The position numbers and the translations under genes were made by a program. Positions 5,701 to 55,036 of a stretch of DNA of 64,000 nucleotides are shown piece after piece; within the stretch, counting starts at the first letter, position 1, and each line of letters starts with the position of its first letter. The DNA is from a virus. Taxonomy: Duplodnaviria > Caudoviricetes. Under the pieces are notes generated by a model that worked only from the letters and a program-made list of their open reading frames with translations, searched no databases and had not been told where the DNA came from. The stretch is from IMG/VR virus record IMGVR_UViG_3300002307_000042, positions 15,431-79,430 of that record. One strand, written 5' to 3'.

Positions 5701-7092
5701 AGCATGTAATAACTCATGTGCTATAGTTTTAGCAATGTATCTATCTAATGAATAGCCTTTGCGTTTCGCAAACTTTACTAGTGCGGGATAATATAGATGT
5801 ATTTCATTAGCATAGAAATTATACGCACCTACCGTGCCGCGTTCAAATCTATCTGCTTTATAGTCTAATATAAACTTGAGTGTTTTTAAAATTTTAGACA
5901 AAACAGGGTCATTGGTTTCAGGAACACCCAATTCTGCTGCGGTAATACCATAAACTCCTAGCTTTAGTTGTTTCATGTCCGGGCCTAATACATTGGCTAC
6001 TTTACCAAGCATTGAAGTATTTCTAGATGCCATTTTAGCAATGACCGATCCTGCCTTATTCGCTACTAGATTAATGACCTGGCTTTCTTCGGTAGTTTCT
6101 GTTAATTGGTCTGTTTCTTCACTGAATATATTTTTAAACTTGCCTTTAAGACGATCCCATTCACCCTTCAATGCAGATGCAGCCATTTGTTTTTCTTGTG
6201 CGGCCCTATCTATTTTAGATTGCAATGGGTCTACTTCATTTTGCAGTTCGTTAGGGTGTATGTTCCATAATTTCATCATTCTATCAATAATAGTGGTGAT
6301 AGTATTGATTTCTTCTTTAGTCCTGCCACTAGTATTTCTTAATTTATTGATTTTTAGTATCGCGTCTTCTCTACTAGTGGCTTCGTCTAAGCTAAGCTTT
6401 TCACTTTCAAGCTTACTTCGCAAATCATACAGTGCGTTTATTCCACCCTGTGTTCTTATTGCTTTGTATGCAAGGTTTTCTGGACTAAACTCTCCTCCCT
6501 TGTCTAACCCTGCTTGACGATATCGCCTAACAGTTGATATTGCTTTATTGATTCGGTCCAAGCTTTTGGTTTTTAGTGCAAGCTCAATGAAATCATTTAG
6601 ACTTTCATACTTGTGTCTGGTTGAATCTTGGTCAAAGTTTGCTCTTGTTCTTTTAGGTGCCTTCAACCAGCGATCATGCAATAAGCTATATTCACCTAAA
6701 CTTACCACAGGTTCATTACTATCTTGAACATAGCATTCAACAGGAATACCCCTTACAGTAATGTCTAAACTGTCGTTGTATAGTGTTTTCTTAGCAGTGA
6801 ATAATTCTTGGTATACTTCATTGTTCGGTAGTTGTCTAAAATCAACTACGATGTGCAAATCAATATCGCTGTGAGGAGTATAACTATAAGCCGCATTACT
6901 ACCACTGATAGTAACGTCTTTAACTTTAAGATCAGTTAATCCTAAAAAAGAAACAAAGTCTTTGGCAATCAATAACAATTGTTCTTTAACTTCACCGTCA
7001 AGAACATGCTTATGCCACAATTTAGGATTAAGTTTGCTGTGAAACTTTATAGCGTCTGATAAGTTAAATGAGTCAAGTTCTGTAATATCCAT
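2740..7092 (-). CDS. Polyvalent protein, 1450 aa: N-terminal Pol-beta/MNT nucleotidyltransferase, HExxH zincin-like segment, unassigned central domains, C-terminal ADP-ribosyltransferase-like (ART-PolyVal type) domain
   Basis: ISGSNAAYSYTPHSDIDLHIV (GS..DxD motif); TIAHELLHALD at 5704-5718; C-terminal RVFYHATTKDF..G.FFA..IIPVYLSVQNP..LQKLGFDGAII..VIFNPNQVK pattern. Confidence 0.75.
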   Translation of the reverse strand: MDITELDSFNLSDAIKFHSKLNPKLWHKHVLDGEVKEQLLLIAKDFVSFLGLTDLKVKDVTISGSNAAYSYTPHSDIDLHIVVDFRQLPNNEVYQELFTAKKTLYNDSLDITVRGIPVECYVQDSNEPVVSLGEYSLLHDRWLKAPKRTRANFDQDSTRHKYESLNDFIELALKTKSLDRINKAISTVRRYRQAGLDKGGEFSPENLAYKAIRTQGGINALYDLRSKLESEKLSLDEATSREDAILKINKLRNTSGRTKEEINTITTIIDRMMKLWNIHPNELQNEVDPLQSKIDRAAQEKQMAASALKGEWDRLKGKFKNIFSEETDQLTETTEESQVINLVANKAGSVIAKMASRNTSMLGKVANVLGPDMKQLKLGVYGITAAELGVPETNDPVLSKILKTLKFILDYKADRFERGTVGAYNFYANEIHLYYPALVKFAKRKGYSLDRYIAKTIAHELLHALDYNKSKGKAFRPTGAYATLPYEINARFQEALYNISLTLSDIKKNDRVFSKTRLYELINVTLDHNRIAEFLPKDGKRYKRLVTRAYKFFEAEMNSPKVEKPLNIVQRAMNYILDKPTTQVAESPDHILSKEKLTEWMDSPYPYNKLKQHNDWKLEYEFTTKEGNLYDVAVAMHRKDIAVVNFNMVKQDTGAGTEKLTGTGDSIKVLSTVVNIVKDAVSILNPKYIMFEASTSEPSRVKLYATMGRMAAKALPNYKLKSIKTSDENSLKKGPGSYSVTTLVRTGPVNEISRQLDEIGFSNAMGPLSLTDEQIISNSVKDGTIGSRPVFLFASGPNNIYFFANDSKIEAFVYLQAGCLKGMKNISQFNKGLVFNLFQYIINLKGQEIHLGKTDNLTPDGITWLLNQTKRDTTGFKLRDQTGALIDPGALFKEWENARETFVPGPTSITISESLHSSQMLENEKSLMPMDIYGATLSEIIPHRHSVVDVPDLIEASGYIPSEKEKSDPRFKTALTKDVRPDSIKKNAKAFNWKTSRAGIPPQARADGKIAENLMKEWKSFLAEDEQLPEWKFKKCTLKESELRRFFEQEAIDRRQTYGTRIVNHLGDNLAWLERVDENTVSPKIKELLDFQNAITRYDQRSKVKPEVGNTLSIVQVRPHTAENIIELRGFLNPKTITDVVYDNEYIAWLEFDDGSSFPDKTLYKMGRGNDFERLVTLMFPDKATADGALAFIYIQKPEGWEIGRASLGENASSQSDAFFFGKSKTSTLKEDQEQQELFPGYDKEHREKRLDNWLQHTHAWDGHKPRVFYHATTKDFDSFQTSGKGFTSVLGMTFDVERHGSFFAVDPKFAETFIEDPNTREYKPGGRIIPVYLSVQNPIDLRDYSLSRMLSNEETVEGFKQNNIDLRSIYYYVDQFVRWELFDGPEGAEFVENLQKLGFDGAIIAEAIPNDCNAKSGEVWVIFNPNQVKAIHNRGSFSPNDPNMMKETG

Positions 7093-7777: not shown

Positions 7778-7835
7778 AAAAAATGAGGTGGGGAGATTCT
7801 GTTACGAGGCTCTCCCCTAGCCCTATGCTAACCTC
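7778..7835 (-). terminator. Terminal hairpin/terminator of the tmRNA coding piece
   Basis: GAGGT..GGGGAGA-loop-TCTCCCC ACCTC followed by TTTTTT. Confidence 0.65.
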
Positions 7836-7872
7836 AAGCGGCTAGAGCAAATGCAAAATCGTTATCGTTTGC
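7834..7872 (-). other. tmRNA tag reading frame ANDNDFAFALAA*
   Basis: GCA AAC GAT AAC GAT TTT GCA TTT GCT CTA GCC GCT TGA, preceded by the A-rich resume context AAAAGTAGAC. Confidence 0.93.
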
Positions 7873-7966
7873 GTCTACTTTTATTTAGTCTATATGCGAC
7901 CAACCAATCAGTCTAGGCTTTCCTATTCCGCGTGTATCGATTCCCAAATATCGTCCCCATCAACTA

Positions 7967-8045
7967 CACTGTCAGCAGGACTTGAACCTGCAAGCGTATT
8001 TCAGCAATCCCGTCAGATAGCGTTTACCAATTTCGCCATGACAGT
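7967..8045 (-). ncRNA. tRNA-like element with degenerate anticodon arm, inside the tmRNA intervening segment
   Basis: Acceptor stem ACTGTCA/TGACAGT (extendable by CTAC/GTAG), D arm GCG AAATTGGTAAA CGC, T arm GCAGG TTCAAGT CCTGC. Anticodon region folds only as ATCT GACG GGAT. No encoded CCA. Confidence 0.8.
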
Positions 8046-8120
8046 GTAGATGGTGGAGACGGAGGGGTTCGAACCCTCGTGTACTCCGCTTTTATTGATA
8101 ACCATCATCAACTAATAATC

Positions 8121-8151
8121 TATTTATACGCTAACATAATGGAGTTGTCAA
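8121..8151 (-). promoter_or_regulatory. Composite promoter for tmRNA: TTGACA-17-TATAAA whose -10 box is also a T4-type late motif TATAAATA
   Basis: TTGACA actccattatgttagcg TATAAATA. Confidence 0.75.
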
Positions 8152-8177
8152 GAAGTATTTTACTAAGTTTTGTAAAT

Positions 8178-49882: not shown

Positions 49883-50746
49883 ATGGTACATAGACCTAAG
49901 AACCGCACAATTGACCAGATTATAGATGATTATATGTCTGCTAAAGCAAGAACTGACGTATTGGGTGTAGATTTCGTTCTTACGGAAGGGCAAAGAAATG
50001 AGCTCCGGGAGGTGATTACGTTCTTCGGACCAAATTCGCTTAGCCGAAGTAGAGCCGGCGGTGGCCTTAGCCAAAAAACATTAGAAATTATAATTCCCAG
50101 ATTCTTAAAGTTTAATTTATCCGGATTTGTTGAAAGGCTGAACGCAATATCCAAAATGTCTTCTAAATCATCATGGGAATATTTCTGTCTAATATACGGA
50201 GAAGAAGAAGCAGCTAAGGTTTGGAAGAAAAAAGCGGACCAGTGCGCCTTATCAGAAGATAGGTTAGGCCAAGAACGCTGGGAGAAATGGCTTAACAAAC
50301 GTTCCGGGAGCTTTCTTGATAGATGGACTTCTCAGTTGGGATCGGAAGAGGCGGCGGCAAAGTATGCTAATCTTCAACAAACACTGTCGAAAGTAAAAAC
50401 GCTTGAGGGTTATATTGAGAGGTTTGGTGAAGAACTAGGTAGACAAAAATACGAAGAACGTTATAATAATGTCAACTCTAAAGAATACAAAACATATGCT
50501 AGAAAAGTACATAGACTGAGTGGGAAAATATACAATGAAAACATTGATATAATAAACCCAGAACGACACCCTAGGACATTAAATGGTGTTGAAGGCGGCT
50601 GGCAGCTTGATCATATCGTGTCCATAAAAGAATGCTTTTTACTAGGTAAACCAGCCGAAGAAGCAGCTTCTTTAGAAAACCTTAGAATGCTTCCATGGAA
50701 GGATAACTTAATGAGAAATTATATCAAAAATGTCAATAATACTTAA
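49883..50746 (+). mobile_element. Free-standing HNH-type endonuclease between gp47 and gp46
   Basis: C-terminal WQLDHIVSIKEC..SLENLRMLPWKDNL; central (E/Q)xGxEE..KY repeats; own ATAAATA motif (49852-49858) and GGAG SD. Confidence 0.72.
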
Positions 50747-52855: not shown

Positions 52856-53434
52856 ATGTCATCACCAAGTAAAAACAAAGGATCAAGTTTTGAGAGAGAA
52901 GTCGCTAAGTTTTTGAGCGACCTATATTCTGAGAGCTTTATCAGAGCGCCCGGAAGCGGCGCATATGTGGGTGGAAAGAATCAATCTCGCAAAGAGTTCT
53001 TACACGAAGGACAGATTCGCAGTTTCAAAGGTGATATTGTACCCGGTCAAAGCTTCACAAGGTTTAATGCCGAATGCAAATCATATGCAGACTTCCCATT
53101 TCATTTAGTAGTAGCAGGAGACTGCAAGGTACTAGAAGATTGGATTACACAAATGATGGCAGTCAGTGAACAAGATGATTTAAACATACTATTCATGAAG
53201 TTTAACCGTAAAGGTAAGTTTGTAGTAGTTCCATCAGATAAGACTTGGGTAACGGATAACTTTATTCATTACACTAGCAAACACGCAGGTGATTGGATCA
53301 TTATTGAATTCGATCACTTTTTTAAGCACAACAAAGACCTTCTTAAAGTTTATTCAGGCTCACCATCTAGCTCATCACATTCCCTAACAGACACCATGTC
53401 ATCTTCCCCTAATATACTCAACATTCAAGTTTAA
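52856..53434 (+). CDS. Holliday junction resolvase (PD-(D/E)XK, Hjc-like)
   Basis: SKNKGSSFEREVA..GDIV..ECK motif. Confidence 0.85.
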   Translation: MSSPSKNKGSSFEREVAKFLSDLYSESFIRAPGSGAYVGGKNQSRKEFLHEGQIRSFKGDIVPGQSFTRFNAECKSYADFPFHLVVAGDCKVLEDWITQMMAVSEQDDLNILFMKFNRKGKFVVVPSDKTWVTDNFIHYTSKHAGDWIIIEFDHFFKHNKDLLKVYSGSPSSSSHSLTDTMSSSPNILNIQV

Positions 53435-53454
53435 CCCACAGAACCCTTTTACAT

Positions 53455-53835
53455 TGTTATGTTCGTAAGAACCTCCTTGAGGTCGCACCACAGATGAATG
53501 CGACTAGATTCTGGAGTATGCTTGGTCGCGAGGCTAAGGAACACCGACAGGGCTCTCGTTAGGTAGGCGAACCCTGAATGAGTCTATAGCATATATTCTG
53601 TCTTGACAGCTATAGAACATGCGTTGCAGAGTTAGAAGCTCACTACAGTCCCAGCAAACTTTATAGGGCAACCGGTAGCGTTACACAGCAAAAATCGCTA
53701 GTGTAACGGGGAACAGACAGCAAAGGATGACAGGCCATGGCATGGTTTATCATTGGTAGTGCCTCTCAGAGGCACTACCATGGCTTCCTGACCGGCATGT
53801 GTATTAGAAGTTAATTAATATAGAGCTACCGATTT
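53455..53835 (+). ncRNA. Candidate large structured ncRNA (boundaries and strand approximate)
   Basis: Non-coding, locally GC-rich (35/60 GC at 53521-53580). Stems: GTCGCA/TGCGAC, CAGGG/CCCTG, CTATAGC/GCTATAG, GTTACAC/GTGTAAC, 12-bp TGGTAGTGCCTC/GAGGCACTACCA, long-range CGGTAGC/GCTACCG. Confidence 0.6.
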
Positions 53836-53848
53836 AGTGAATAGAAAA

Positions 53849-53948
53849 GAATTGAAAAGAATAAACAAATTGAAAAAGGTTATACCGAATGAGCAAAGCG
53901 AATGAAGGTATAAGTTGATCGTAGATCAACGATGAATTGAAAAGAATA
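53849..53948. repeat. 15-bp direct repeat GAATTGAAAAGAATA flanking two inverted repeats
   Basis: Copies at 53849-53863 and 53934-53948; TTATACC/GGTATAA (53880-53913) and GTTGATC/GATCAAC (53914-53930) lie between them. Confidence 0.8.
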
Positions 53949-53981
53949 TATCTTACATTGGCTGAGAATATTATATCCAAA

Positions 53982-54212
53982 TCAGAAGAACGGCAATTGA
54001 GATTTCTTTGTGACATCCATGTGTTCTTCAATGATTTGTGAAATTGCGATTCTTTCTTCATTGGACATATTTAATATGTCCTCGTAGGAAGCTCCGCCCC
54101 TCATATGCCAAGCCATGTTTAGAGCGGAGCGTTTGATGTCAATCGTCTCAGTTTCATAGGTCTCAAAAAGCTTCTTAATCTCTTCGGGAGACGACCTGAG
54201 AAGCCTTAGGCG
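53982..54212 (-). CDS. gp51-like 76-aa extension in the -1 frame of the gp26-like gene (predicted frameshift product, 351 aa total)
   Basis: RLRLLRSSPEEIKKLFETYETETIDIKRSALNMAWHMRGGASYEDILNMSNEERIAISQIIEEHMDVTKKSQLPFF*; open from the slippery heptamer at 54212-54218; internal ATG 54116 has no SD. Confidence 0.72.
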   Translation of the reverse strand, partial: RLRLLRSSPEEIKKLFETYETETIDIKRSALNMAWHMRGGASYEDILNMSNEERIAISQIIEEHMDVTKKSQLPFF

Positions 54213-55036
54213 AAAAAATCAGCAGGGTTCAGCGTAATAGTCTGTTCAAACTGGTTTTGGCATGACGGGCAAGTAATAGTCATAGGCTTAATCTCGCTTT
54301 CGGCTCTAAGCTTTGCACTATGGTCTCTGATTGTAGTATATAGATTTCTATCACAATTCTTTAAGAAGTCTAAGATGAATTCTTTTTCTGTTACTTTCTG
54401 TGATGCCGGAGTCTGAATATAATCTACACTTTGACTTAACAGGTCCATAGTAAGGTCTGTGACTTTTTCTAGATAGTCCTGAACAGTTTTGTTGCGCTGG
54501 TCATCATCTTCGATAGTTTCAATTTGATTTAACACGCGCTGGAATTCAAACTGCTTTAATGAAGCATCGTTTACTGCTTTGTAACTTAGTGGCTTTAATT
54601 TTACCTTAAGATCACCTAAGTCAAGTTCAGTATCGAAGTCTGGCTTTCCAATAGTAGATAATACCCCTGCTAAATTGATCGTGTATGTTGAAGTGTCTTC
54701 ACACTTTGGGCATGTGCTATCAAGCTCCATGTTACCTGATGCACTACTTGCAGTTTTAATTGCTACTAATATAGCGTCTAAGTCTACATTTGTTACTGCC
54801 CATGGATCATTGATGCATGGGATACAGCTACGAATCAATTCTGCAATTGCTGTTCCGTTAAACAATGCGTCAGGTGTTCTTACTGTGATTTCATCAATCG
54901 CAGTCATGGGATATACGGGAAGCTCGCCGTTTTCAGGCATATCAATTGAATTCTCAGGATATCCTGTACCATTACTAGGCAATTTGATATAAACTGCTGG
55001 TCTACGAAAATATTGCTTTAGTGGGTTATTGTCCAT
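54206..55036 (-). CDS. gp26: Baseplate hub assembly/tail chaperone, T4 gp26-like
   Basis: NPLKQYFRRPAVYIKLPS..VDLDAILVAIK..CPKC..CPSC..NPADFFA; divergent from the tape-measure genes. Confidence 0.82.
   Translation of the reverse strand: MDNNPLKQYFRRPAVYIKLPSNGTGYPENSIDMPENGELPVYPMTAIDEITVRTPDALFNGTAIAELIRSCIPCINDPWAVTNVDLDAILVAIKTASSASGNMELDSTCPKCEDTSTYTINLAGVLSTIGKPDFDTELDLGDLKVKLKPLSYKAVNDASLKQFEFQRVLNQIETIEDDDQRNKTVQDYLEKVTDLTMDLLSQSVDYIQTPASQKVTEKEFILDFLKNCDRNLYTTIRDHSAKLRAESEIKPMTITCPSCQNQFEQTITLNPADFFA

What the first reader, a model, noticed from the sequence alone, without database searches (positions are those of the whole stretch)
53455..53835. Candidate undescribed ~380-nt ornate ncRNA between convergent gene blocks
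The region has no credible ORF and is much GC-richer than its flanks. It is densely paired: 53482-87/53499-504, 53548-52/53572-76, 53584-90/53609-15, 53680-86/53701-07 and a 12-bp stem 53754-65/53769-80. Long-range pairs 53673-79/53825-31 and 53617-22/53795-800 cross each other (pseudoknot), and alternative pairings (ACCGG/CCGGT, TAGCG/CGCTA) suggest a switch. I could not match it to tRNA, tmRNA, RNase P, group I/II intron or small ribozyme consensus. It could be a ribozyme, scaffold, packaging/replication RNA or protein sponge.
Basis: partly seen in the sequence, partly recalled or inferred. Interest (0 to 1): 0.82.

Follow-up and report, generated by a model that had tools for sequence, protein, structure and literature searches.

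The report
Large knotted RNA of jumbo phages
The gene-free stretch behind a small DNA-cutting-enzyme gene of this uncultured giant T4-like phage encodes a real, roughly 345-base, intricately folded non-coding RNA (a four-way junction locked by at least two pseudoknots) that over a hundred related phages keep at the same spot; it matches no catalogued RNA family and its job is unknown.

Summary
The finding holds up. Window 53450-53803 (+ strand) is a conserved non-coding RNA gene. I collected 118 distinct full-length homologues from IMG/VR contigs, 54-81% identical to the window. On a 61-sequence alignment, 94% of proposed pair cells form standard pairs, against 27-40% when the partners are slid. 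54 of 75 pairs show changes on both sides. G-U outnumbers A-C 117 to 18, so the + strand is the folded one. The fold has three 5' hairpins, a near-perfect four-way junction (P4-P7), hairpins P9 and P10, and two pseudoknots (53598-602/53716-20 and 53649-52/53709-12). Its two long-range pairings and its "switch" are not conserved. No Rfam family matches the window or 20 homologous loci. GenBank phages and 185,579 prokaryote genomes hold no copy. Synteny is strict: the PD-(D/E)XK nuclease gene lies upstream on the same strand and the baseplate gene converges downstream. More distant relatives carry other large RNAs in the same slot, some starting with Rfam Polynucleobacter-1. Function is unknown. 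My leading guess, at low confidence, is a protein-binding RNA tied to the nuclease and recombination module. This scan had already found this RNA, or sister RNAs in the same slot, on other genomes (13 notes matched my search).

The parts
53450..53803 (+). Conserved RNA gene (type-1 jumbo-phage RNA). The structured part runs 53461-53800.
   Evidence: blastn and nhmmer find it in about 200 of 224 related loci. There are 118 distinct full-length copies, 54-81% identical. Alignments are A1 and A2.
53450..53455 (+). TACATT, a -10-like hexamer 5 nt before P1. Relatives have TAAAAT, TACAAT or AACAAT at the same place. It may be the RNA's own promoter (inferred).
   Evidence: Upstream alignments and hexamer tally. 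No sigma-70 promoter was called by the scan.
53461..53472 (+). P1 hairpin (GUUC GUAA GAAC)
   Evidence: All 118 homologues have a 4-7 bp hairpin ending right before CUCCUUGA, with 44 distinct stem sequences.
53473..53516 (+). P2: closing helix CUCC 53473-76 / GGAG 53513-16, conserved internal loop UUGA / AGAUUCU, and hairpin P2b 53481-87/53499-505
   Evidence: CUCC/GGAG is kept through three independent double changes: CCCC/GGGG in L027, CUCU/AGAG in L189, CUUC/GAAG in L171. P2b pairs 53481-505 and 53485-501 covary.
53521..53538 (+). P3 hairpin of variable length. Some relatives carry long insertions.
   Evidence: All 6 pairs show changes on both sides and 91% of cells are paired. Insertions occur in L138, L065 and L035.
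53543..53676 (+). P4 long-range helix ACCG 53543-46 / CGGU 53673-76. It closes the four-way junction P4/P5/P6/P7, whose linkers are 1, 1, 2 and 0 nt.
   Evidence: 100% of cells are paired. One sequence carries a double compensation, GUCG/CGAC in L070.
53548..53576 (+). P5 hairpin (53548-52/53572-76 plus 53556-58/53568-70)
   Evidence: 99.7% paired, with 4 of 5 outer pairs changed on both sides.
53578..53620 (+). P6 hairpin (53578-80/53618-20 plus 53583-90/53609-16). Its loop carries the 5' strand of PK1.
   Evidence: 99.6% paired, with all 8 counted pairs changed on both sides.
53598..53602 (+). PK1 5' strand (CUGUC), which pairs with 53716-53720 (GACAG)
   Evidence: 100% of cells are paired and all 5 pairs change on both sides.
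53623..53672 (+). P7 helix GUUGC 53623-27 / GCAAC 53668-72. It encloses P8 (53629-31/53639-41, a variable hairpin) and the invariant single strands ACUACAG and AAACUUUAYAG.
   Evidence: 100% paired, with GUUAUA/UAUAAC variants. P8 carries a branched insertion of about 170 nt in L206.
53649..53652 (+). PK2 5' strand (UCCC), which pairs with 53709-53712 (GGGA)
   Evidence: 92% paired. Variants are UCCC/GGGA, CCCC/GGGG, GCC/GGC, ACC/GGU, CCU/AGG and CCUC/GAGG.
53659..53678 (+). Two-base-pair crossing contact, CU 53659-60 / AG 53677-78
   Evidence: 99% paired, with U-A, U-G and C-G variants.
53680..53707 (+). P9 hairpin (53680-86/53701-07 plus 53687-89/53697-99) with an A-rich loop
   Evidence: 97% paired, with 9 of 10 pairs changed on both sides.
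53709..53720 (+). GGGGAAYAGACAR: the 3' strands of PK2 and PK1 joined by an invariant AA.A linker
53739..53745 (+). Box 1 (GGCAUGG; GGCAAUG or GGCAAGU in most relatives)
   Evidence: It resembles box 2 more in the same phage than across phages: 6.55 against 6.10 +/- 0.07 of 9 positions, with 0 of 500 shuffles as high. The two boxes share the identical 7-mer in 23 of 118 homologues.
53755..53779 (+). P10 hairpin. The proximal 8 bp, GGUAGUGC/GCACUACC, are nearly invariant in sequence. It is followed by the invariant AUGGCUUC, so that CCAUGG forms a palindrome.
   Evidence: 42 distinct versions. The distal pairs covary (CU/AG, CA/UG, CCUC/GAGG, AGAGCC/GGCUCU).
53794..53800 (+). Box 2 (GGCAUGU), the 3' end of the conserved block
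52856..53434 (+). Upstream neighbour: a PD-(D/E)XK nuclease gene (Pfam PDDEXK_15), annotated as a Holliday-junction resolvase in cultured relatives
   Evidence: Pfam E=2e-25. GenBank annotations. It lies upstream on the same strand in 81 of 81 pattern-found loci that have a flank.
53882..53932 (-). Two hairpins followed by T runs on the minus strand. They are probable terminators of the converging baseplate operon and would shield the RNA gene from antisense transcription (inferred).
   Evidence: Sequence reading, repeats, and a conserved hairpin loop in relatives (3' ends of the rows).

Best explanation
Identity (shown). Window 53450-53803 is a stand-alone gene for a non-coding RNA of about 345 nt, read on the + strand. 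That is the direction of the gp47-gp46-nuclease operon that ends 26 nt upstream. The RNA has three 5' hairpins (P1-P3). A near-perfect four-way junction (P4/P5/P6/P7) forms the core. The strand that follows hairpin P9 locks this core: it pairs back into the P6 loop (PK1) and into the internal loop of P7 (PK2). About 85 positions are invariant or nearly so, mostly unpaired nucleotides at the junctions. The 3' domain holds the sequence-invariant hairpin P10, a palindromic CCAUGG, and two copies of a GGCA(A/U)K word. P3 and P8 are peripheral stems that tolerate insertions of up to about 170 nt.

Mechanism (inferred, about 1 in 3). The RNA is made either from its own -10-like promoter directly before P1 or by read-through of the recombination operon. 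The minus-strand terminators just downstream would shield it from antisense transcription. It then acts in trans as a rigid folded platform that binds a multimeric protein, displaying the repeated GGCA words and the invariant P10 stem. My leading candidate partner is the dimeric junction nuclease encoded directly upstream, or another protein of the recombination module. The RNA would regulate, sequester or guide that partner.
For: Real structured RNA. 94.0% of 4535 pair cells are standard pairs, against 27-40% with partners slid by 1-3 columns. 54 of 75 pairs change on both sides. The covariation score is 0.408 against 0.05-0.08 slid, and 0 of 500 shuffles reach it. An independent mutual-information scan recovers the same helices and both pseudoknots.

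Strand. In the well-aligned helices G-U outnumbers A-C 117 to 18.

Not coding.

A link to the nuclease is suggested by three points. (1) In 98 loci found by a DNA pattern alone, which is unbiased by genes, the nuclease gene always lies directly upstream on the same strand and the baseplate gene converges 300-460 nt downstream. (2) More distant nuclease clades keep a large RNA in the same slot even though its sequence is different. Of 74 such loci, 48 lack type 1, and 6 of 20 representatives begin with Polynucleobacter-1 at 54-104 bits. (3) The two GGCA boxes co-vary by identity, not by complementarity, and have no complementary partner inside the RNA. That pattern fits a repeated site for an external reader.

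The P10 stem is conserved in sequence, not only in pairing, as expected for a recognised surface.
Against: Adjacency to the nuclease gene may be plain synteny within one phage radiation. Cultured phages with the same nuclease family (PA5oct, SCTP-2, NCTC12673, Phosso; 33-42% identity) have protein genes directly downstream and no RNA, so the nuclease does not need an RNA for its basic job. The box co-variation is modest, and relatedness of the sequences could inflate it. The promoter assignment rests on an AT-rich hexamer with no support from the consensus scan. Many conserved unpaired nucleotides fit a ribozyme or a ligand pocket equally well.
Confidence: 0.4

Rival explanations
1. It is a ribozyme, either self-processing or acting in trans. 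The double-pseudoknotted four-way-junction core would build an active site from the invariant junction nucleotides (ACUACAG, AAACUUUACAG, GGAAUACCGA, GGGGAAUAGAC).
For: The size, the number of crossing helices and the concentration of invariant nucleotides in unpaired junctions rather than stems are typical of catalytic RNAs. Peripheral stems vary freely while the core is fixed.
Against: No ribozyme family in Rfam matches (group I/II, RNase P, small self-cleavers), even at E<=10. The helix order differs from RNase P: there is no closing P1 between the ends and no CR-I/CR-V. The RNA lies between genes, not inside one, so it has no exons to splice. No conserved processing site is evident.
Confidence: 0.2
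2. It is a cis-acting 3' element of the gp47-gp46-nuclease transcript. It would act as an exonuclease-resistant cap, a transcription roadblock or an insulator at the convergent junction, rather than as a trans-acting RNA.
For: It always sits at the 3' end of the same operon, facing a converging operon. Non-homologous RNAs occupy the same slot in other clades, as expected if position matters more than sequence. No intrinsic terminator was found for the + strand.
Against: About 345 nt, two pseudoknots and about 85 invariant or near-invariant positions conserved across nuclease divergence down to about 60% identity is far more than known 3' stabilisers need. A -10-like hexamer sits directly before P1. 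Cultured relatives do without it.
Confidence: 0.15
3. It is a structured pre-primer or origin RNA, like ColE1 RNA II or the R-loop origins of T4. It would start DNA replication next to the recombination genes.
For: T4-type phages use transcripts as origin primers (textbook knowledge, not tested here). The element lies beside the gp46/47 and nuclease genes. Iteron-like repeats GAATTGAAAAGAATA (3 copies) lie 35-145 nt downstream in the window.
Against: The repeats are T-run tails of minus-strand terminators rather than conserved iterons. Nothing marks a DNA-unwinding element or an RNase H site. The skew profile only reflects the switch of gene orientation.
Confidence: 0.1
4. It is an RNA-only homo-oligomer (cage or scaffold) like GOLLD, ROOL or OLE. 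It would assemble through the invariant palindrome CCAUGG and other exposed strands.
For: Large ornate phage-associated RNAs of unknown function form RNA-only multimers (PMC12286853). An invariant single-stranded palindrome (A)CCAUGG(C) follows P10, and the window subgroup has a second one, GCCAUGGC at 53734-41.
Against: There is no sequence or model similarity to GOLLD, ROOL or OLE. The palindrome never varies, so covariation cannot test it. The RNA is half the size of those RNAs.
Confidence: 0.1
5. It is not an RNA at all. It would be a decayed or recoded protein gene, or a DNA-level element.
For: Some homologues have stop-free stretches of up to 126 codons on the minus strand.
Against: These frames differ between homologues in strand and phase. 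Variability has no 3-nt periodicity. Compensatory changes keep 94% of pairs, and G-U far exceeds A-C on the + strand.
Confidence: 0.02

Closest known systems
Sister RNAs in the same slot behind the PD-(D/E)XK nuclease gene of related freshwater T4-like phages, including those whose 5' third is the Rfam motif Polynucleobacter-1 (RF01718; Weinberg et al. 2010, PMC2864571)
   Same: They have the same genomic position and orientation: they start 30-60 nt after the nuclease gene, on the same strand, facing the baseplate operon. They are of similar size (350-500 nt) and occur in the same kind of uncultured phage.
   Different: No detectable homology. RF01718 scores 54-104 bits in six sister loci but gives nothing in the window at E<=10 or in 20 type-1 loci at gathering score. 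My core model R1 and six segment HMMs of type 1 find nothing in the sister loci. By eye, a GGGGAAUA..AC word looked similar in L104 and L277, but this did not survive those tests.
GOLLD (RF01998) and ROOL (RF03087) large ornate RNAs
   Same: They are large, multi-helix, pseudoknotted non-coding RNAs. They are often carried by phages or prophages, were found by comparative genomics, and have no known biochemical function (PMC12286853).
   Different: They are about 580-800 nt, against about 345 nt here. Sequence and helix order differ and there is no model match. GOLLD and ROOL sit near tRNA genes in prophages of cultured bacteria. This RNA is known only from uncultured lytic-type jumbo phages and always lies behind one nuclease gene.
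Bacterial RNase P RNA (RF00010/RF00011)
   Same: It has a similar length (330-400 nt) and a core made of long-range helices that cross each other, with invariant unpaired nucleotides.
   Different: There is no model match. The 5' and 3' ends are not paired to each other, the CR-I/CR-V P4 sequences are absent, and the order of strands differs.
Guide or scaffold RNAs encoded next to their nuclease genes (TnpB and IscB omega RNAs, tracrRNAs)
   Same: A large structured RNA is encoded immediately beside a small nuclease gene, and the RNA scaffold diverges beyond recognition between nuclease clades while the position stays fixed.
   Different: The nuclease here is a PD-(D/E)XK junction-resolvase type, not RuvC/HNH. 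There is no transposon end and no long variable guide segment; only 2-5 variable letters follow GGCA. Relatives of the nuclease work without any RNA. This is an analogy only and was not tested.

Membership tests
Polynucleobacter-1 RNA (Rfam RF01718) | Match to the RF01718 covariance model at or above the gathering score of 37 bits | tested here: not met
   No RF01718 match in window 53300-54250 at E<=10, nor in 20 homologous loci at gathering score. Positive control: six sister loci score 54-104 bits.
GOLLD (RF01998) / ROOL (RF03087) / OLE / raiA large ncRNAs | Match to the family covariance model | tested here: not met
   cmscan of all 4227 Rfam 15 families found nothing in the region of the window at gathering score or at E<=10, and nothing in 20 homologous loci at gathering score.
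RNase P RNA | Model match, a P1 helix joining the 5' and 3' ends, and a P4 helix formed by the conserved CR-I and CR-V sequences | tested here: not met
   No model match. No supported pairing of the 5' leader with the 3' tail (5.08 against 4.85 in shuffles). The helix order differs.
Group I / group II introns | Model match, and insertion inside a host gene with exons to be joined | tested here: not met
   No match to RF00028, RF00029 or any other intron model at E<=10. The element lies between the stop codon of the nuclease gene (53434) and a converging operon.
tRNA / tmRNA | Detection by ARAGORN or by the Rfam tmRNA models | tested here: not met
   ARAGORN and Rfam find only the permuted tmRNA at 7787-8155 and nothing at 53.4-53.8 kb.
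Type-1 RNA behind the jumbo-phage PD-(D/E)XK nuclease gene (a family defined by this scan, not published as far as I could find) | About 350 nt directly downstream of the nuclease gene on the same strand | tested here: met
   Strict synteny in 98 pattern-found loci. The window sequence scores 110.5 bits (E 3e-27) against the core model R1, but it was one of the sequences the model was built from.
Type-1 RNA behind the jumbo-phage PD-(D/E)XK nuclease gene | Doubly pseudoknotted fold supported by covariation | tested here: met
   PK1 is 100% paired with 5 of 5 pairs changed on both sides. PK2 is 92% paired with 3 of 4 pairs changed on both sides.
Type-1 RNA behind the jumbo-phage PD-(D/E)XK nuclease gene | It is transcribed as a discrete RNA | not testable with these tools
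Twin-box RNAs (earlier notes of this scan) | Two short boxes identical to each other within a phage but changing between phages | tested here: inconclusive
   Box 1 (53739-45) and box 2 (53794-800) share GGCA plus 2-5 letters. The identical 7-mer occurs in 23 of 118 homologues. Mean best match is 6.55 of 9 against 6.10 +/- 0.07 for shuffled pairings. The signal is real but modest and is not corrected for phylogeny.

The most novel reading that the evidence does not exclude
The RNA is the catalytic or guiding partner of a new kind of phage ribonucleoprotein. It would be either a new ribozyme class or an RNA that works with the PD-(D/E)XK junction nuclease encoded directly upstream. Its near-perfect RNA four-way junction and duplicated GGCA words would act as the docking surface for the nuclease dimer. 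Different phage clades would then have evolved different RNAs for the same slot and the same partner.
Probability: 0.15. Interest if true: 0.92.

Novelty: new member of a known kind. Interest (0 to 1): 0.7.

Why it matters
Non-coding RNAs this large and this tightly constrained are rare: about 345 nt, a four-way junction, at least two pseudoknots and dozens of invariant unpaired nucleotides. Most RNAs of this complexity whose function is known are ribozymes or the cores of ribonucleoproteins. Those still without a known function (GOLLD, ROOL, OLE, raiA) are under active structural study. This one is abundant in uncultured freshwater giant phages and is absent from cultured phages and from 185,579 prokaryote genomes. 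It always sits behind one recombination nuclease gene, and other clades fill the same slot with different RNAs. That gives a concrete, testable entry point (RNA plus nuclease, in vitro) into an unknown piece of jumbo-phage biology. It also gives a genomic context to part of the orphan Rfam motif Polynucleobacter-1. The alignment and the two-pseudoknot model are good enough to seed an Rfam family and a cryo-EM or chemical-probing study.

Tried and rejected
2. A closing helix between the 5' leader and the 3' tail or boxes is only marginally above shuffled pairings: 5.08 against 4.85, and 5.46 against 5.36.
3. No reverse-complement 7-mer of the boxes lies anywhere in any homologue, so there is no internal partner. 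Box 1 and box 2 are not complementary to each other.
4. A helix CAUGG(53736-40)/CCAUG(53778-82) is broken in the CAGGC, CGUAG and CCAGC variants while ACCAUGG never changes. I left it out.
5. I looked for homology between type 1 and the other RNAs of the slot. By eye GGGGAAUA..AC looked similar in L104 and L277. The core model R1 (filters off) and six segment HMMs find nothing.
6. Cultured relatives hold no copy: blastn of the window RNA and of a majority-type homologue against 50,697 GenBank phages finds no match even at E<=1. PA5oct, SCTP-2, NCTC12673 and Phosso have no gap downstream of the nuclease gene.
7. Prokaryote genomes hold no exact match to the P10 pattern.
8. A small ORF (53737-53814, 25 codons with AAGGA upstream) lies in the 3' domain, but its frame relative to the invariant P10 differs between subgroups and the ATG is absent in many homologues.
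9. I read the junctions by eye for a K-turn, an 11-nt receptor, C/D boxes and RNase P CR motifs. None fits. The 9-mer ACAGAACCC upstream of the RNA, identical to part of E. coli M1 RNA (recalled from memory), lies outside the conserved block and occurs only in a subgroup.
10. The T4 late promoter TATAAATA is not present before the RNA in the window.
12. A PDB sequence search for the nuclease gave no match at E<=1.

Full report
Setting. The window is a 64-kb piece of a 79-kb IMG/VR virus record that CheckV rates 22% complete, so the phage genome is about 350 kb. Its gp46-like protein is closest (35-41% identity) to PA5oct-type and other T4-related jumbo phages. Around the finding the genes are a 287-aa ORF with no Pfam hit (49883-50746; called gp47 in this report from its position before gp46, not tested), gp46 (Rad50-like), a 192-aa PD-(D/E)XK nuclease (Pfam PDDEXK_15, E 2e-25; 52856-53434, +), the gene-free stretch, a doubtful 75-aa ORF, a T4_baseplate-family gene (54206-55036, -) and a 1280-aa protein.

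Observation. The stretch 53435-53833 has no + strand ORF of 30 aa or more. It is GC-richer than its flanks: 0.45-0.50 against 0.30-0.40. Rfam 15 finds only a permuted tmRNA far away at 7787-8155, and nothing in 53300-54250 even at E<=10. ARAGORN finds nothing there. The single-sequence fold energy is only mildly better than shuffles (z -2.3 on +, -2.9 on -), so the sequence alone proves little.

Homologues. blastn and nhmmer found the element in about 200 of 224 loci. There are 118 distinct full-length copies, 54-81% identical to the window. That is as well conserved at the nucleotide level as the neighbouring proteins are at the amino-acid level.

Structure. RNAalifold, a scan of all column pairs by mutual information and inspection of representative rows agree on the fold given under "parts". 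I counted it with the count of structure pairs on the MAFFT alignment A2 (61 sequences).
- 94.0% of 4535 cells are standard pairs, against 27-40% when the 3' partners are slid by 1-3 columns.
- 54 of 75 pairs change on both sides.
- The covariation score is 0.408 against 0.05-0.08 slid, and 0 of 500 shuffles reach any observed measure.
- PK1 (53598-602 in the P6 loop with 53716-20) is 100% paired, with all five pairs compensated.
- PK2 (53649-52 with 53709-12) shows six different complementary versions.
- The short closing helix CUCC/GGAG of P2 is invariant in most sequences but is kept through three independent double changes.
- P1 exists in all 118 homologues, with 44 distinct stems. The distal pairs of P10 covary while its proximal 8 bp are fixed in sequence.
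- P4, P5, P6 and P7 meet with linkers of 1, 1, 2 and 0 nt, which makes a near-perfect four-way junction.
- P3 and P8 are peripheral. P8 carries a branched insertion of about 170 nt in L206.

Strand and coding. In the well-aligned helices G-U cells outnumber A-C cells 117 to 18. The + strand is therefore the one under selection to fold, which is the direction of the upstream operon. Column variability has no 3-nt periodicity, and the longest stop-free frames differ in strand and phase between homologues. The region is not a protein gene.

The two long-range pairings, and with them the proposed pseudoknot and switch, are peculiar to the window or its subgroup. The true crossing helices lie elsewhere.

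Context. In 98 loci found by the DNA pattern alone, every locus with enough flank has the nuclease gene upstream on the same strand (81 of 81). Where the flank reaches, the baseplate gene converges 300-460 nt downstream (91 loci). The 75-aa ORF has no tblastn match in these loci. In the window that stretch holds two hairpins with T runs on the minus strand, which are probably terminators of the baseplate operon, framed by three copies of a 15-nt repeat. A TA(A/C)AAT-like hexamer lies 5-8 nt before P1 in most homologues (TACATT at 53450-55 in the window). This suggests an own promoter, but the region is AT-rich and the consensus scan calls nothing. No + strand terminator is evident.

Distribution. 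GenBank phages hold no match, even at E<=1 with a majority-type query. One genome from each of 185,579 prokaryote species holds none. Cultured phages with the same nuclease family (PA5oct, SCTP-2, NCTC12673, Phosso) have protein genes directly behind it.

Other RNAs in the same slot. L104 has the same gene order but an unrelated non-coding stretch of about 470 nt. I fetched 74 loci with L104's nuclease. Of these, 26 carry type 1 and 48 do not. The 48 fall into 19 sequence clusters. Six of 20 representatives begin, 40-60 nt after the gene, with a full-length match to Rfam Polynucleobacter-1 at 54-104 bits (gathering score 37). I built a covariance model of the type-1 core (R1, window 53617-53724). 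Neither R1 nor six segment HMMs find anything in those loci, even with filters off. The slot is conserved across a wide radiation while its RNA content is not recognisably homologous.

The boxes. Notes of earlier agents in this scan describe "twin boxes" in sister RNAs, so I tested the idea here. Box 1 (53739-45) and box 2 (53794-800) share GGCA and a few following letters. Examples within single phages are GGCAUG/GGCAUG, GGCAAGU/GGCAAGU, GGUAAU/GGUAAU, AGCAAUGG/AGCAAUGG and UGCAUGU/UGCAUGU. The best match within a phage averages 6.55 of 9, against 6.10 +/- 0.07 for shuffled pairings (0 of 500 as high). The identical 7-mer occurs in 23 of 118 homologues, and no reverse complement exists inside the RNA. 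The signal is real but modest and is not corrected for phylogeny. It fits an external reader of a repeated site better than an internal helix.

Interpretation. The following are shown:
- a conserved, + strand, non-coding element with a covariation-supported fold holding at least two pseudoknots;
- strict synteny with the nuclease gene;
- no match to any Rfam family.

Everything about function is inferred. I rank the possibilities as follows:
- a trans-acting protein-binding RNA tied to the nuclease and recombination module, about 0.35-0.4;
- a ribozyme, 0.2;
- a cis-acting 3' element of the operon, 0.15;
- an origin pre-primer, 0.1;
- an RNA-only multimer, 0.1.

The ranking rests on the adjacency kept across RNA types, the repeated single-stranded words, the sequence-invariant P10 stem and the four-way-junction core. 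Against it stand the cultured relatives, whose nuclease has no RNA, and the complete lack of expression or binding data.

Known relatives and novelty. The closest things are the sister RNAs of the same slot, one kind of which contains Polynucleobacter-1 (PMC2864571). As a kind, the closest are the large ornate phage-associated RNAs GOLLD and ROOL, which form RNA-only assemblies (PMC12286853). Membership in each was tested with the Rfam models and not met. A published screen of IMG/VR reports more than ten thousand candidate structured RNAs, some near resolvase genes but described as upstream of them (PMC10690425). Its tables were not available here, so I cannot exclude that this RNA is listed there without description. 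Within this scan the same or sister RNAs had already been noted: 13 notes matched my word search. My analysis agrees with those notes and independently confirms both the Polynucleobacter-1 link of the sister type and the finding of different RNAs at the same spot. I file it as a new member (a new family) of the known kind "large structured phage ncRNA of unknown function".

Noticed in passing
window 7787-8155 (-): A permuted (two-piece) tmRNA gene: Rfam tmRNA_permuted 78.8 bits and alpha_tmRNA 72.5 bits. A TTGACA-N17-TATAAA promoter-like site lies just upstream. ARAGORN calls an odd tRNA-like piece with a 4-base anticodon at 7966-8046, inside the tmRNA's intervening segment. A phage-borne permuted tmRNA may hint at the host group.
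   Followed up: no
window 53839-53948: Three copies of GAATTGAAAAGAATA frame two hairpins: 53882-53915, whose loop CGAAYGAGCG.AGCGAAYGA is conserved in relatives, and 53916-53932. On the minus strand each hairpin is followed by a T run, so they are probably tandem terminators of the baseplate operon. They lie inside the 75-aa ORF 53834-54061 (-), which has no tblastn match in 98 related loci, so that ORF is doubtful at least in its 3' part.
   Followed up: partly
L229-L302 (loci fetched with the nuclease of L104), e.g. L263:2036-2178, L277:2050-2190: In more distant relatives, the orphan Rfam motif Polynucleobacter-1 (RF01718) is the 5' part of a larger non-coding stretch directly behind the same nuclease gene. 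Other clusters (for example L104/L229) have yet another RNA-like stretch there with no Rfam match.
   Followed up: partly
L206:1932-2099 (-); also L138, L065, L035: One homologue carries a branched, well-folding insertion of about 170 nt (z -3.9) in the peripheral hairpin P8. Others carry 30-70 nt insertions in P3.
   Followed up: partly
window, upstream of the genes starting at 7092(-), 11925(-), 37794(-), 47037(-), 48754(-), 49883(+): A (G/T/A)ATAAATA word, like the T4 late promoter TATAAATA, lies 5-25 nt before several gene starts. It may be the late promoter of this phage.
   Followed up: no
window 53737-53814 (+): A 25-codon ORF with AAGGA 10 nt upstream runs through box 1, P10 and box 2 of the window RNA. 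Its frame is not kept in other subgroups and many homologues lack the ATG, so it is probably fortuitous.
   Followed up: yes
L227 (PA5oct record 76516-77180) and L304 (Phosso record 229759-230772): Two cultured jumbo phages have unannotated gaps of 0.66-1 kb just upstream of their resolvase genes. The type-1 CM (R1) finds nothing in either gap, and the type-1 HMM (run on PA5oct only) finds nothing. The gaps were not examined further.
   Followed up: partly
L133, L120, L111, L165, L166, L209, L212, L217, L219 and others: About 13 of 98 pattern-found loci begin or end inside the RNA. For at least four of these (L133, L120, L111, L165) the locus is the whole contig. The likely cause is assembly breaks at the most conserved stretch shared by co-occurring strains.
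   Followed up: no
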